Below are positions 8,468 to 11,469 of a stretch of 64,000 nucleotides of DNA, piece after piece. The stretch's first letter is position 1. Every line of letters starts with the position of its first letter. Source of the DNA: a virus; IMG/VR virus record IMGVR_UViG_3300020419_000009, positions 1 through 64,000 of that record; one strand, 5' to 3'. Both the position numbers and the translations under genes were made by a program. The notes below the pieces were generated by a model. It did no database searches and was not told the DNA's origin. It saw only the letters and a program-made list of their open reading frames with translations.

Positions 8468-8653
8468 ATGATTACTAGATATAGAATCATGGACAGTTCC
8501 GATAATCAAGTAGCGGAGGCAAACAGTCCCGAAGAATGTGACCAAATCATTCATCATTTGGGCGAACAAAACCCTTGCGAACAGTACTCCGTGGAATCGT
8601 TTAACGTAAGTAGTGTTAAACCAGGATTTGGACGTGATCCAGATTTGCATTAA
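8468..8653 (+). CDS. small acidic hypothetical protein
   Basis: 61 aa filling the gap; TAAATA at 8455-8460 lies 7 nt before the ATG; a hairpin follows the stop. Confidence 0.55.
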   Translation: MITRYRIMDSSDNQVAEANSPEECDQIIHHLGEQNPCEQYSVESFNVSSVKPGFGRDPDLH

Positions 8654-8655
8654 TG

Positions 8656-8676
8656 GAATGAGCTAAACGCTCATTC
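8656..8676. terminator. 8-bp hairpin between convergent units, possible terminator
   Basis: GAATGAGC-TAAAC-GCTCATTC starts 2 nt after the stop of 8468..8653. Confidence 0.45.
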
Positions 8677-8747
8677 GTGTTATCGCTTTCGCTCAAACAC
8701 TTATTATATGTGTAATATTAAGTGCGAAGCACTTACGTTTCATGTAG

Positions 8748-9046
8748 ATTGTTTAGTCAGACGGAACCTTACAGCAGGCTCCATCATCCCTAGCTTCATG
8801 TGAGTTCGCATAGCCGAGATCGGAAATAGGTATTTGACTTTGCTACTGGGCTCTGACCTTTCCCAACCTACGTCGACATCACGAAAAATTTGCAAAACCG
8901 CTTTACCGCTTCGCGGGTTTCTCGCTATCCCCTGCTTCGTTCCTAGTGCATGGGGTTTTCGTAGCAAATAGCCTAGTGGACTCGCCAGTTCTGATGTAGC
9001 TCGTAGCTACACCTCAAAGCGGATCGAGGTACCCCGATCAAACAAT
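8748..9046 (-). ncRNA. putative large structured non-coding RNA (~300 nt), family not recognised
   Basis: 150 of 300 nt are G/C over 8761-9060 in an AT-rich genome. Terminal helix AUUGUUU/AAACAAU, several internal hairpins whose G-U pairs work only on the minus strand, and two possible pseudoknots. Confidence 0.65.
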
Positions 9047-9059
9047 GTCCGTATATTGC

Positions 9060-9482
9060 CTATATTGTTTTAAGTTGTTCTTTTAAGATTTTTGAACTGC
9101 CTACCCGCACATTAATGATACCATTATAGTAATCATCGGTTTCTAGTACTCTGCGGTCAAATTGTTCCTTAGCCTCTAAGTAGCTCATTAAGCCTCTGCT
9201 TTTACACATATAAAGTATTTCTCTTGTAAAATTTTCTTGTCCTAGTTGTTCTACGTCTGCAATTAGATGATCTGAGGAACCCCAATATTCTTTCCAATCG
9301 CTTTCAACTTTGCTTCTTCTTTTGTTTTTCTTGCCTTTTAATGGAGGTTTTGTTTTCTTAAATTTTGCTAACTTTTTGCCTATGTACTTACGTCCGTTGG
9401 TTGTATTGGTAATTAGATATACAAATCCTTCGATATCCTCTGGGAGAATTTCTACTTTTTTTCCTTGGTAAGTCCACTGCAT
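9060..9482 (-). CDS. stand-alone GIY-YIG family endonuclease
   Basis: GFVYLITNTTNGRKYIGKK (GIY...YIG), later SYLEAKE (Glu) and YYNG (Asn); 140 aa with a Lys/Arg-rich insertion. Confidence 0.8.
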   Translation of the reverse strand: MQWTYQGKKVEILPEDIEGFVYLITNTTNGRKYIGKKLAKFKKTKPPLKGKKNKRRSKVESDWKEYWGSSDHLIADVEQLGQENFTREILYMCKSRGLMSYLEAKEQFDRRVLETDDYYNGIINVRVGSSKILKEQLKTI

Positions 9483-9500
9483 ATGGATACTTACCCTAGC

Positions 9501-9701
9501 CTAATCTACAGTGTGGTCGGTCTTGGAATTATGCTTATAATGAATCTCGTCCATGCGTAATTTTGCAAGTCTACGTATTTCTCTTAGCCACTTACGACTT
9601 TCTCGATGTGTACGCACAGAGTTTCTAGCCTCAAATGCCTCGTTTGCCTTAAAATATGCCATATAAGCCTTTGTTAATAAATCATGTGTATCATCATTCA
9701 T
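9501..9701 (-). CDS. small basic helical hypothetical protein with weak resemblance to Hc1-like proteins
   Basis: Likely start ATG 9701 overlapping the gp46 stop; 66 aa containing RESRKWLREIRRLAKLR. Confidence 0.6.
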   Translation of the reverse strand: MNDDTHDLLTKAYMAYFKANEAFEARNSVRTHRESRKWLREIRRLAKLRMDEIHYKHNSKTDHTVD

Positions 9702-11469
9702 TGAATATTTCCACATCATTTTCATATGATGTAAAGCCGTTCTCCTTGATCACTTTTAAAACGTGTGTTACTCTACCAACAAGTTCGTCTTTGTGTGATA
9801 TTAGGTATACGTTTTTGTTTCGCTCTCTACCCATCTTTTTGAGTACAGCTAAACTATTCTCTACACCACTAGTATCCATACCTGAATCAATAAGCTCATC
9901 TATGAACAGCAGATTAATATTTTGATACAAGCTCTCCCAAACATCTCTGAATGCAAAGCTCATACCAAGAATCAATCTGTTACGTTCACCCCTGGAAAGA
10001 TTATCAAAATCGAGATCCTGACCAAGTTGTGTGATTTCAACAGCCAAGTCGTTCATGAAAACAACTTGATGAGGTAATCCTAATTTGTCAAGATAGTGGG
10101 TGAGCCTATTGTTCAGGTATGCCAAGTTTTGATCAATAATCTTTTTTCGAATAAAAGAATCTTTGTTAGTTAATAACTTTAACAAAAACTCTTGATGTTC
10201 TCTAAGACTAGTGAGCTCATTGACTGTAGTCCAGTCAATTTCTTGGATTCCTTTGTTTTTTAAATCATCAATCTGTTCTTGATAAGGATCTGTTTCATTA
10301 CTAGAATTGTCAAAAGCAGATTTTAATTGTTGTACGTTTTGTTTGTGATCATAAACTTCTTTAATAGTTTCATAAAAAGTTTCGGGTCTTCCATTTATAT
10401 CACCTATACCTTTTAACTGATCGTTTGCTATTTTTAGTTTGTCATTAATTTCTGTTTGATATGATACTGCATCATCATATTCTTTTTGTTTTGTTTTTTC
10501 AATTTCTTTTTTCTTTTCTTCTTGTAAGTCTTGACCACAAGCATAGCATTTTGCGTCAGCAAGACCTTCTATATCTTTTGAAACTTTGTCTACAGACTTA
10601 TCTGCTCTCATTAATGCAGAGTCAAGTGTAGAAGTTTCTTTTTTTAGATTATTAATCTTTGTATTCAATTCTTCCCAATTTTGTAACTGTTCGTGCTTTG
10701 CAATTTCTTTATCTACATCAAGATGTTCAAGTTCGTCTATACCTTTTTGTAGTTTATCTATGTTAGTTTTTTTAGTTGTTTCCCAAGCACTTTGTTTTAA
10801 TTTTAGACTTTCTATAGTTTCTTCTATCCTATCATTACTTTGTTTTTGTGCATTTATAGTTGCATTCTCTTCTGTAATAGCATCTTTTGTACTTTTAATT
10901 TTTTCTTTCAAAGACTCTGCTTTTTCAGATAATATAGTAATACCAAGCAACTGTTCAATAATATCTTTTTGGTCATTTACTTTCATACTTAGGAACGGTT
11001 CAGTATAAGTGTTTAATGCAAGTATGTGTTTAAACATATTATGACTCATACCTAACAGTTCATTTATAGTTTCTTGTGTTTTTCTACTGTCACCTTGGCT
11101 TTCGTCTACTAGTTCTTGTTCTTGATCATTAATAAAAAACTTTAATAAATTAGGACCCCGTCCTCTTTCTACTTTATAGCTAGTACCATCTTTTTCAAAA
11201 GTCAGCGTAACTAACATGCCCTTGTTATTAGTCTTGTTAATAAGGTTATTTCTTTTAATATTTGTAAGTGCTAACCCGTATAATGCATAACTTAATGCAT
11301 TTACAATAGTTGTTTTACCGGTTCCGTTTCTAGAACCCATATCATCACCACCTTGATCAAGATTTTCACCGAGAACTAGTGTTAATTGTTGCTTGTCAAA
11401 GTCTACTGCCTGGGTTTGGTTACCCACACTCATAAAATTTCTAACTGTAAGATTTTTTATTTTAATCAT
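9694..11469 (-). CDS. gp46: recombination endonuclease ATPase subunit (gp46/SbcC/Rad50)
   Basis: Walker A RNGTGKTT, zinc hook CYAC, signature LSRGE, Walker B LLFIDE, H-loop ISHK. Confidence 0.95.
   Translation of the reverse strand: MIKIKNLTVRNFMSVGNQTQAVDFDKQQLTLVLGENLDQGGDDMGSRNGTGKTTIVNALSYALYGLALTNIKRNNLINKTNNKGMLVTLTFEKDGTSYKVERGRGPNLLKFFINDQEQELVDESQGDSRKTQETINELLGMSHNMFKHILALNTYTEPFLSMKVNDQKDIIEQLLGITILSEKAESLKEKIKSTKDAITEENATINAQKQSNDRIEETIESLKLKQSAWETTKKTNIDKLQKGIDELEHLDVDKEIAKHEQLQNWEELNTKINNLKKETSTLDSALMRADKSVDKVSKDIEGLADAKCYACGQDLQEEKKKEIEKTKQKEYDDAVSYQTEINDKLKIANDQLKGIGDINGRPETFYETIKEVYDHKQNVQQLKSAFDNSSNETDPYQEQIDDLKNKGIQEIDWTTVNELTSLREHQEFLLKLLTNKDSFIRKKIIDQNLAYLNNRLTHYLDKLGLPHQVVFMNDLAVEITQLGQDLDFDNLSRGERNRLILGMSFAFRDVWESLYQNINLLFIDELIDSGMDTSGVENSLAVLKKMGRERNKNVYLISHKDELVGRVTHVLKVIKENGFTSYENDVEIFNE

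What the first reader, a model, noticed from the sequence alone, without database searches (positions are those of the whole stretch)
8748..9482. Stand-alone GIY-YIG nuclease followed immediately by a ~300-nt ornate, pseudoknotted RNA
Seen (minus strand): 13 nt after the nuclease stop, the largest non-coding gap of the window rises to 50% GC. AUUGUUU (9046-9040) pairs with AAACAAU (8754-8748) to close it. Inside are GAUCGGG/CUCGAUC (9039-9022), GGUGUAGCU/AGCUACAUC (9013-8993), CCCC-UGC/GCAGGGG (8955-8929), UCUCGGCU/AGCU-GGGA (8819-8787) and GAUGGAGCCU/AGGUUCCGUC (8785-8760). Long-range pairs UUUGCUAC (8968-8961)/GUAGCAAA (8846-8839) and loop GGUCAGA (8858-8852)/UCUGACU (8761-8755) suggest pseudoknots. 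CACUAGG occurs twice and AUGUCGACGU is self-complementary. G-U pairs favour the minus strand, co-directional with the nuclease. The 140-aa nuclease lacks the C-terminal DNA-binding domain of I-TevI-type homing enzymes, has a K/R-rich insertion after YIG, and shows no obvious canonical Arg. Inference: a nuclease-RNA ribonucleoprotein (by analogy to HEARO/OMEGA, possibly RNA-guided), a new ribozyme, or a multimerising phage RNA. I do not recognise the family.
Basis: partly seen in the sequence, partly recalled or inferred. Interest (0 to 1): 0.85.

Follow-up and report, generated by a model that had tools for sequence, protein, structure and literature searches.

The report
Twin-box structured RNA behind phage nuclease
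The gene-free stretch behind a small DNA-cutting enzyme gene of this uncultured marine T4-like phage encodes a real, knotted RNA of about 400 bases from an uncatalogued family that carries one short word twice, always mutated in step; the enzyme is a near-constant neighbour but very probably not RNA-guided.

Summary
The RNA is longer than reported, about 404 nt (9059 to ~8656).

In 104 distinct relatives the long-range helix and several hairpins are kept by compensatory changes. The two pseudoknot helices are invariant and change only G-C to G-U. Rfam 15 gives no match, no cultured phage carries the RNA, and the region does not look coding.

The nuclease is a SegE-type GIY-YIG enzyme (Pfam E 1e-35) with its catalytic residues conserved.

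Linkage is very tight:
- 113 of 114 informative RNA loci have the nuclease directly upstream.
- Nearly all close nuclease homologues have such an RNA downstream.

It is not obligatory. One RNA lacks the nuclease. One nuclease clade, which matches the nuclease locus of the cultured, complete Methylophilales phage Melnitz beside nrdB, has no such RNA.

The most unusual feature is two boxes (CUCACAUGAAG, UCUACAUGAAA). They carry the same 7-mer in 102 of 104 aligned cores, across nine variant types. I found no complementary partner in cis.

Best reading: an independent structured RNA that presents two identical single-stranded words to an outside partner, with a homing-type nuclease as neighbour. 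Function is unknown. Earlier agents of this scan found the same family on other genomes.

The parts
8656..9059 (-). Twin-box structured RNA, about 404 nt (5' domain, doubly pseudoknotted core, 3' domain)
   Evidence: Conserved directly downstream of the nuclease in more than 200 contigs. Covariation. No Rfam match. Stop-free runs and length mod 3 are non-coding-like.
8993..9046 (-). 5' domain, short form: closing strand AUUGUUU (9046-9040), hairpin 1 (9039-9022), hairpin 2 (9013-8993)
   Evidence: Hairpin stems differ but stay complementary in relatives. Many relatives have a longer, different 5' domain joined to the same core.
8839..8968 (-). Long-range helix H1 (UUUGCUAC 8968-8961 with GUAGCAAA 8846-8839). 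It encloses H2 (8955-8929), a variable hairpin (8928-8881), the palindrome GAUGUCGACGU (8880-8870) and hairpin H5 (8865-8847).
   Evidence: All 7 H1 pairs and 3 of 4 H2 pairs have compensatory changes in 104 sequences. The variable hairpin ranges from a tetraloop stub to about 90 nt.
8826..8871 (-). Pseudoknot helix H4: GUAGGU (8871-8866) with ACCUAU (8831-8826), crossing H1
   Evidence: 100% paired in 104 sequences. It varies only G-C to G-U, so it is consistent with pairing but not proven.
8755..8858 (-). Pseudoknot helix H6: loop GGUCAGA (8858-8852) with UCUGACU (8761-8755)
   Evidence: 100% paired. Two positions change on one side only and keep the pair (G-U/G-C 89/15; C-G/U-G 98/6).
8794..8804 (-). 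Twin box X1 (CUCACAUGAAG), in the loop of hairpin H7 (8820-8786)
   Evidence: Same 7-mer as X2 in 102 of 104 aligned cores; nine variant types changed identically in both boxes.
8738..8748 (-). Twin box X2 (UCUACAUGAAA), just 3' of the H6 strand
   Evidence: As for X1. Box spacing is 50-67 nt with no frame kept. No complementary 6-mer in cis.
8760..8785 (-). Hairpin H8 (GAUGGAGCC / GGUUCCGUC) between the two boxes
   Evidence: 99.5% paired; 2 pairs have double-sided changes and 3 have one-sided changes.
8656..8734 (-). 3' domain: UUCG-type hairpin (8734-8720), GUGUU-UGA-GC-GAAA-GC-GAU-AACAC motif with tandem G-A (8700-8677), terminal hairpin (8676-8656)
   Evidence: 44 and 35 distinct complementary stems among 107 unique sequences; the motif's flanks covary. 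No U-tract, so it is not a classical terminator.
9060..9482 (-). 140-aa stand-alone GIY-YIG nuclease (SegE type)
   Evidence: PF19835 E 1.3e-35 over 3-123; phrog_447 E 2.5e-39. AF2 pLDDT 92, with the I-TevI catalytic domain as the top, weak PDB fold match. Invariant Y22, Y33, R56, E88, N120.
9488..9495 (-). Conserved GGUAAGUA, 5 nt before the nuclease start codon
   Evidence: Present in most relatives. In some it is replaced by TATAAATA-like sequences. Role unknown.
9501..9725 (-). 74-aa Arg/Lys-rich ORF between gp46 and the nuclease
   Evidence: All 79 informative homologues are followed by the nuclease. No Pfam or PHROG family.

Best explanation
The stretch 9059-8656 (minus strand) is the gene of a large, doubly pseudoknotted non-coding RNA of an uncatalogued family, the 'twin-box RNA', carried by uncultured marine T4-like and jumbo phages.

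Shown:
- It is a real structured RNA on the nuclease strand.
- It has a conserved core, variable peripheral hairpins and a conserved 3' domain.
- It holds two short boxes that are kept identical to each other while their sequence drifts.

Inferred, in order:
- The RNA is made from the end of the gp47-gp46-nuclease transcript, or from its own promoter in some relatives. It then acts as a rigid scaffold.
- The first 2-3 nt of each box end a helix. The AUGAAG part stays single-stranded and is offered to an outside partner.
- Both boxes must read the same thing, and I found no complementary 6-mer partner in cis. So the partner is most likely a nucleic acid (or a co-evolving dimeric factor) bound twice or at two identical sites.
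- The GIY-YIG enzyme is a free-standing homing-type endonuclease. It has long sat beside this conserved RNA gene and is inherited with it, much as T4 SegB sits among the phage's tRNA and stable-RNA genes. It is not the RNA's effector.

The biological job of the RNA is not known.
For: Structure:
- 91% of cells paired against 85% in shuffles and 34-42% when slid; 288 double-sided changes against 108; H1 fully compensatory.
- 35 and 44 distinct complementary stems in two 3' hairpins.
- Fold z -1.7 on the minus strand, -0.3 on the plus strand.

Not coding:
- Median stop-free run is 43 codons, and lengths are spread evenly over mod 3.

New family:
- No Rfam hit for the window or for 5 relatives.
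- RF01718 is absent.
- No cultured phage carries it.

Twin boxes:
- 102 of 104 aligned cores have the same 7-mer in both boxes; 26 sequences in 9 variant types change identically.
- More variants occur in other subtypes: GCAUGAUG, AGAUAAUG, AUCAUCAAG.
- No cis complement: 4 of 95 loci for the main type.

Nuclease separable from the RNA:
- The Melnitz-type clade beside nrdB has no RNA, and neither does the whole 141.5-kb Melnitz genome.
- That clade is a single branch (SH-aLRT 96) nested among RNA-linked nucleases under a midpoint root.
- L118 has the RNA with no nuclease upstream in the 6.9 kb of contig held on that side.
- L119 has TTGACA-17-TATACT between the two genes.
Against: - The linkage is far tighter than for typical sporadic homing endonucleases: 113 of 114 RNA loci have the nuclease directly upstream, co-oriented, with a 0-13 nt gap. 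This holds down to 52% nuclease identity and across RNA subtypes.
- No 'empty' allele, with the RNA but no nuclease in the same context, was seen.
- No promoter or terminator separates the two genes in this window.
- No outside partner has been identified.
- The two pseudoknot helices never vary on both sides, so they are not proven.
- BLAST and pattern searches could miss a very divergent RNA in Melnitz.
Confidence: 0.45

Rival explanations
1. Nuclease and RNA form one ribonucleoprotein machine. The catalytic-domain-only enzyme (140 aa, K/R-rich beta-hairpin insert) binds the RNA. The twin boxes either guide it by base pairing or place two monomers side by side to make a double-strand break. 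Two identical guides would read an inverted-repeat DNA site.
For: - Near-absolute, co-oriented, gap-free linkage across deep divergence.
- Pfam finds no DNA-binding domain.
- The basic insert is folded with high confidence.
- The boxes behave like matched address words.
- On a midpoint-rooted tree the RNA-linked state looks ancestral for this nuclease group.
Against: - A ~75% identical nuclease lives without the RNA in Melnitz-type phages, including one complete genome.
- L118 has the RNA without the nuclease.
- The boxes are only 6-9 nt long, drift slowly, and do not match flanking DNA.
- The word occurs 23 times as a 7-mer in the phage's own 99 kb, about as expected, so there is no self-avoidance.
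- Some relatives carry a C-terminal CxxC extension on the nuclease, which points to protein-based DNA recognition.
- Small GIY-YIG enzymes such as T4 endonuclease II work without extra domains (my own knowledge).
Confidence: 0.2
2. The RNA is a cis-acting 3' untranslated element of the nuclease mRNA. It protects the message from 3' exonucleases or tunes nuclease expression, perhaps through protein binding at the two boxes.
For: - It starts at or within 13 nt of the stop codon, and in many relatives the stop codon lies inside the conserved 5' motif.
- No promoter or terminator lies between the two genes here.
- The linkage is tight.
Against: - 400-550 nt with two pseudoknots and a conserved core is far more than a stabiliser needs.
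- Some relatives have a strong promoter-like site between the genes.
- L118 keeps the RNA without the gene.
- The Melnitz-type nuclease needs no such element.
Confidence: 0.12
3. It is a ribozyme, either a relic of a group I-like intron that once carried the nuclease gene or a new class. It processes itself at the two identical boxes, excising or ligating the 50-67 nt between them.
For: - The order of strands resembles the group I P3/P7 pseudoknot.
- An A-rich joiner follows H1, and the GGUCAGAG block resembles the R element (my reading).
- GIY-YIG genes are classic partners of phage group I introns.
- Twin identical sites suit one catalytic centre acting twice.
Against: - No match to Intron_gpI, GIR1 or any ribozyme family even at E<=10.
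- GGUCAGA lies in the loop of a local GGG/CCC hairpin, not in a P7-like helix.
- There is no J8/7-like joiner.
- There are no conserved flanking exons, and downstream genes differ between loci.
- The G that would be the terminal G is A or C in some variants.
Confidence: 0.1

Closest known systems
GOLLD (RF01998) and ROOL (RF03087), large ornate RNAs of phages and prophages (cryo-EM: PMC12286853)
   Same: - Several hundred nucleotides long, with multiple pseudoknots.
- Phage-borne, found by comparative analysis, and of unknown function.
- A conserved self-complementary GUCGAC leaves homo-oligomerisation open, as shown for those RNAs.
   Different: - No sequence or structure match in Rfam 15.
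- Smaller.
- Almost always fused to a GIY-YIG gene.
- Carries two boxes kept identical, a feature I do not know to be described for those RNAs.
T4 SegB and other free-standing Seg-type GIY-YIG homing endonucleases, sited beside conserved genes (the tRNA/stable-RNA cluster, nrd genes)
   Same: - The nuclease matches the SegE GIY-YIG domain.
- It is stand-alone.
- It lies next to a conserved RNA gene here and next to nrdB in Melnitz-type phages.
   Different: - 140 aa, with no C-terminal DNA-binding domain.
- Near-universal rather than sporadic beside the RNA.
- No cleavage site or empty allele is known.
HEARO / OMEGA RNAs of IscB and TnpB (RNA-guided nucleases of mobile elements)
   Same: A nuclease gene next to a roughly 300-nt or longer ornate RNA on the same strand.
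   Different: - A different nuclease fold.
- No Rfam match.
- No variable guide at an RNA end.
- The nuclease exists without the RNA in a complete genome.
Group I introns carrying GIY-YIG genes (T4 td, nrdB)
   Same: - A phage GIY-YIG gene joined to a pseudoknotted RNA core.
- Crossing long-range helices in a P3/P7-like order.
   Different: - No Intron_gpI hit.
- No exons.
- The whole RNA lies 3' of the gene.
- The core joiners differ.
Polynucleobacter-1 motif (RF01718; PMC2864571), named as closest in earlier notes of this scan
   Same: An aquatic metagenome RNA motif of unknown function.
   Different: No match at E<=10 in this phage record or in five relatives' records.

Membership tests
SegE-type GIY-YIG nuclease (PF19835) | Profile match over the whole GIY-YIG domain above the curated cut-off | tested here: met
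   122.8 bits against a cut-off of 25, E 1.3e-35, residues 3-123 on profile 1-123.
SegE-type GIY-YIG nuclease (PF19835) | Catalytic Tyr-Tyr-Arg-Glu-Asn set conserved | tested here: met
   Y22, Y33, R56, E88 and N120 are invariant in 17 sequences down to 56% identity. Mapping them onto I-TevI residues is my inference.
SegE-type GIY-YIG nuclease (PF19835) | GIY-YIG fold | tested here: inconclusive
   The model has pLDDT 92. The top PDB hits are the I-TevI catalytic domain, but weakly (E 0.13, TM 0.47/0.65).
Free-standing homing endonuclease (Seg/Mob type) | Sporadic presence, with empty alleles in close relatives | tested here: not met
   79 of 79 informative homologues of the upstream ORF, and 113 of 114 RNA loci, carry the nuclease.
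Free-standing homing endonuclease (Seg/Mob type) | The same nuclease occurs in unrelated genomic contexts | tested here: met
   A clade 75-77% identical lies beside nrdB in Melnitz-type phages.
Free-standing homing endonuclease (Seg/Mob type) | Site-specific cleavage of the nuclease-less allele | not testable with these tools
   Needs an enzyme assay.
HEARO / OMEGA guide RNA | Match to the family model, IscB/TnpB partner, variable guide at one end | tested here: not met
   No Rfam hit. The partner is a GIY-YIG enzyme. The ends are conserved or run into unrelated flanks.
Group I intron (RF00028) | Covariance-model match | tested here: not met
   No hit at E<=10 in 1.5 kb.
Group I intron (RF00028) | Conserved exons on both sides and a terminal G | tested here: not met
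   Downstream sequence differs between loci. The candidate G is A or C in several variants.
GOLLD / ROOL / OLE / raiA large RNAs | Covariance-model match | tested here: not met
   No hit for the window at the gathering cut-off, for 8300-9800 at E<=10, or for 5 relatives at E<=1.
Polynucleobacter-1 (RF01718) | Covariance-model match | tested here: not met
   No match at E<=10 in the window's own 99-kb record or in five relatives' records.
Twin-box RNA (family defined in this scan, not published) | Core block GUAGGU-N-GGGAAAGGUYAGAGCCC, H1/H4/H6 topology, and two identical boxes 50-67 nt apart | tested here: met

The most novel reading that the evidence does not exclude
The RNA and the nuclease work as a new kind of RNA-directed DNA cutter. 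A knotted scaffold RNA holds two catalytic-domain-only GIY-YIG monomers. It reads a two-fold symmetric (inverted-repeat) DNA site, or two copies of one site, through its two identical 6-9-nt boxes. Re-addressing the enzyme would then need the same mutation in both boxes.
Probability: 0.1. Interest if true: 0.95.

Novelty: categorically new. Interest (0 to 1): 0.72.

Why it matters
Large, intricately folded RNAs with conserved pseudoknots have so far nearly always turned out to be ribozymes, riboswitches or cores of RNA-protein machines, and few new classes remain to be found. This family is abundant in ocean phage contigs: more than 590 stretches in IMG/VR encode a relative of the partner nuclease.

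Its two boxes co-vary by identity rather than by complementarity. Standard covariation tools do not look for that signature, and it implies a partner read twice. Finding that partner would reveal what the RNA does during infection.

If the minority reading is right, it would add a GIY-YIG branch to the RNA-guided nucleases.

Tried and rejected
- **Rfam 15.** I searched at gathering and at E<=10 on the window, and at E<=1 on five relatives. Nothing relevant came up. The only weak rows, IS009 and CRISPR-DR40, are chance.
- **Polynucleobacter-1.** This was a lead from earlier notes. There is no match.
- **tRNA/tmRNA.** None in the window or in the 99-kb record.
- **Group I intron reading.** Rejected: there are no exons, no model match, and the R-like block sits in a hairpin loop.
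- **RNase P.** 'GGGAAAGGUC' resembles the RNase P CR-I block (my recollection), but no model matches.
- **Small ORF or translational bypass between the boxes.** Rejected: the spacing is 50-67 nt in all three frames, and the window's 75-aa ORF is not conserved.
- **A cis partner for the boxes.**
  - Exact complementary 6-mers occur in only 4 of 95 loci.
  - G-U-tolerant searches gave only scattered hits. These included the nuclease start codon region in some loci, explained by the CAUG palindrome and not by covariation.
  - Mutual information found only the other box.
- **Antiparallel box-box pairing.** It does not explain identical changes.
- **Tandem or inverted copies of the box complement in the phage record.** None.
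- **Nuclease-box co-variation.** Too few close pairs to judge.
- **PDB sequence search with the nuclease.** No GIY-YIG hit.
- **BLAST of the RNA against 50,697 phage records.** Nothing.
- **PA5oct,** the nearest cultured relative by gp46 (51%). It has no nuclease or RNA after gp46.
- **Left out.** I built no covariance model, because it can search only DNA already fetched. I sent no complex prediction, because the tool takes no RNA.

Full report
**Setting.** The window is the first 64 kb of a 99-kb IMG/VR virus record. On the minus strand run gp47 (12476-11466), gp46 (11469-9694), a 74-aa Arg/Lys-rich ORF (9725-9501), the 140-aa nuclease (9482-9060) and then the stretch in question. The nearest cultured relatives by gp46 are PA5oct-like jumbo phages at 51% identity. 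The nearest for the nuclease are the Methylophilales phages Melnitz.

**The observation.** The stretch has 46% G+C against 34% for the window.

One sequence alone folds only modestly better than shuffles (z -1.7 on the minus strand, -0.3 on the plus strand). The case therefore rests on relatives. More than 590 IMG/VR stretches encode a relative of the nuclease. The DNA just downstream is conserved in blocks separated by hairpins of variable length.

**Extent.**
- a UUCG-type hairpin (8734-8720);
- a GUGUU-UGA-GC-GAAA-GC-GAU-AACAC element with tandem G-A pairs (8700-8677);
- a terminal 8-9-bp hairpin (8676-8656).

Among 107 unique sequences, the first and last hairpins have 44 and 35 different but complementary stems. 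The RNA is thus about 404 nt here and 380-560 nt in most relatives. Many relatives carry a longer, different 5' domain on the same core.

**Structure test.** I aligned 104 distinct cores (A1) and counted a hand-drawn structure of 40 pairs.
- 91% of cells pair, against 85% in shuffles and 34-42% when the partners are slid.
- Double-sided changes number 288, against 108 expected.
- The long-range helix H1 (8968-8961 with 8846-8839) has compensatory changes at all seven pairs. H2 and H8 also have some.
- The crossing helices H4 (GUAGGU/ACCUAY) and H6 (GGUCAGA/UCUGACU) are 100% paired. They change only G-C to G-U, so they are consistent with two pseudoknots but not proven.
- The many G-U pairs fit the nuclease strand only.
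- H7 was poorly aligned, so it was not well tested.

The region is not coding. The median stop-free run is 43 codons, lengths fall evenly on all three residues mod 3, and the window's 75-aa ORF is an outlier.

**Known families.** Rfam 15 gives nothing at gathering cut-offs for the window. It gives nothing relevant at E<=10 for 8300-9800, and nothing at E<=1 for five relatives of other subtypes.

Earlier notes of this scan named Polynucleobacter-1 (RF01718) as the closest family. It gives no match at E<=10 in this record or in five relatives' records.

No tRNA or tmRNA is present. BLAST against 50,697 phage records finds no copy. Three MAG contigs of 73-335 kb, probably mis-binned phage DNA, carry the same module. 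Literature searches found no description.

A group I reading tempted me, because of the order of the crossing helices, an A-rich joiner and an R-like GGUCAGAG block. It fails on four counts:
- no model match;
- GGUCAGA lies in the loop of a local GGG/CCC hairpin;
- there is no J8/7-like joiner;
- the flanks downstream differ between loci, so there are no exons.

**Twin boxes.** X1 (CUCACAUGAAG, 8804-8794) lies in the loop of hairpin H7. X2 (UCUACAUGAAA, 8748-8738) follows the 3' strand of H6.

In alignment A1, which was made without regard to the boxes, 102 of 104 cores have the same 7-mer at both places. One exception is a misaligned row (L118) whose boxes are identical by eye. The other is a true single mismatch. 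Twenty-six sequences carry nine non-consensus types (ACAUGAU, ACAUAAU, GCAUAAA, GCAUGAA, ACGUGAA, GUAUGAA and others), each changed identically in both boxes.

Other RNA subtypes add GCAUGAUG, AGAUAAUG and AGAUGAUG. L118 adds AUCAUCAAG. The consensus is N-C-A-U-N-A-W-G, with U4 and A6 fixed.

The boxes are not complementary to each other. Spacing is 50-67 nt in all frames. Mutual information finds only the other box as partner. An exact complementary 6-mer occurs in cis in only 4 of 95 loci of the main type. G-U-tolerant searches give no consistent site.

In the phage's own record the 7-mer occurs 23 times, without tandem or inverted arrangement. By my rough estimate the 8-mer count (3) is close to expectation (about 4). 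The boxes are the 3' ends of two imperfect repeats of about 28 nt (GUCU..CUG..GA..CUNAC-AUGAAG). This hints at an internal duplication, which is my reading.

Identity co-variation is what one expects if both boxes are read by one and the same partner. That partner could be a nucleic acid bound twice, or a dimeric factor that co-evolves. Which it is remains open.

**The nuclease.** It matches the SegE GIY-YIG domain end to end (E 1.3e-35) and phrog_447. Y22, Y33, R56, E88 and N120 are invariant in 17 homologues down to 56% identity.

The AF2 model is confident (pLDDT 92). Its best, though weak, PDB neighbours are the I-TevI catalytic domain. The K/R-rich stretch folds as a beta-hairpin. There is indeed no further domain. 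Some relatives have a C-terminal CxxC extension.

**Linkage.** A 30-nt core pattern found 120 loci.
- Of the 114 with enough upstream DNA, 113 have the nuclease directly upstream on the same strand.
- Of the 80 closest homologues of the 74-aa ORF, all 79 informative ones are followed by the nuclease, and then by the RNA where the contig goes on.
- Of the 80 closest nuclease homologues, all with enough downstream DNA have a twin-box RNA of some subtype, except five: L066, L067, L075, L077 and L079.

Those five share the locus context of the Melnitz nuclease. There the gene follows nrdB and a small acidic ORF and is followed by a TATAAATA-like sequence and ordinary genes. The complete 141.5-kb Melnitz genome has no BLAST match (best E 2.1) and no core pattern within three mismatches.

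On a quick tree, the four distinct no-RNA sequences form one branch (SH-aLRT 96) nested among RNA-linked ones under a midpoint root. This fits a single move of the nuclease gene to a classical homing-endonuclease niche.

Conversely, L118 has a divergent RNA with no nuclease upstream in the 6.9 kb of contig held on that side. L119 has an 11/12 sigma-70-type promoter between nuclease and RNA. L131 carries the same hexamers by eye.

**Reading.** That the RNA is real and new is secure. For function I commit, at about 45%, to an independent scaffold RNA that offers two identical single-stranded words to an outside partner, with the nuclease as a long-standing homing-type neighbour.

The main argument against is how rarely the pair is broken and that no empty allele was seen. 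This keeps three rivals alive:
- a true nuclease-RNA machine, about 20%;
- a cis-acting 3' UTR role, about 12%;
- self-processing at the boxes, about 10%.

The conserved GAUGUCGACGU changes only in ways that keep it self-complementary (U2 to C, C8 to U). This leaves homodimerisation open under any of these readings.

**Earlier work in this scan.** Other agents reported the same family on other genomes as the 'twin-box' RNA, with the same main conclusions. I re-derived the boxes, the linkage and the separability here independently.

Noticed in passing
window 9501-9725 (-): A 74-aa Arg/Lys-rich ORF (..RESRKWLREIRRLAKLRMDEIH..) sits between gp46 and the nuclease. All 79 informative homologues are followed by the nuclease. 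It has no Pfam or PHROG family. It looks like an arginine-rich helix and could be an RNA-binding partner of the RNA.
   Followed up: partly
window 9488-9495 (-), and upstream of the nuclease in L003-L202: A conserved GGUAAGUA lies 5 nt before the nuclease start codon, preceded by UAGGC. A few relatives have TATAAATA-like sequences there instead. A similar UAGGCA lies at the 5' edge of the RNA (9062-9057). It may be a start or processing signal.
   Followed up: no
L203-L282: About half of the 80 contigs found through the 74-aa ORF end inside or just after the nuclease/RNA module. Several loci also end there. This suggests an assembly break point caused by conserved RNA next to hypervariable downstream DNA.
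   Followed up: no
L119:5075-5103 (+); L131 likewise by eye: TTGACA-17-TATACT (11 of 12) lies between the nuclease stop and the RNA, on the RNA strand, inside an insertion of about 130 nt.
   Followed up: partly
L283, L284, L286, L287 (nuclease 3' extension): In these relatives the sequence between the nuclease match and the RNA reads as a C-terminal tail with a CxxC motif (..GKxxCxTCxGKF..), a possible zinc-finger DNA-binding add-on. I did not check that it is in frame with the nuclease.
   Followed up: no
window 8738-8820 (-): The two boxes end two imperfect direct repeats of about 28 nt (GUCUCGGCU..GAACUCACAUGAAG and GUCUGACU..CAAUCUACAUGAAA). Their flanks also change in parallel in relatives (GAUACUC with GAUUAAUCU). 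This suggests an internal duplication.
   Followed up: partly
window 8468-8653 (+): A 61-aa ORF converges on the RNA's 3' end. Its reverse complement is conserved after the RNA in some relatives (L020, L036, L044). Other relatives have unrelated genes there, on either strand.
   Followed up: no
L291 and L292 (PBPT01000016.1, 335 kb; PBPT01000082.1, 153 kb); L290 (JBDNIA010000124.1, 73 kb): Contigs binned into Neomarinimicrobiota and Crocinitomicaceae MAGs carry the nuclease-RNA module. They are probably jumbo-phage DNA mis-binned into bacterial genomes.
   Followed up: no
L293 (PA5oct, NC_071039.1 69150-77889): In PA5oct the gp47-gp46 operon ends directly against convergent structural genes, with no nuclease or RNA. 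This is the position the module occupies in the window's phage.
   Followed up: no
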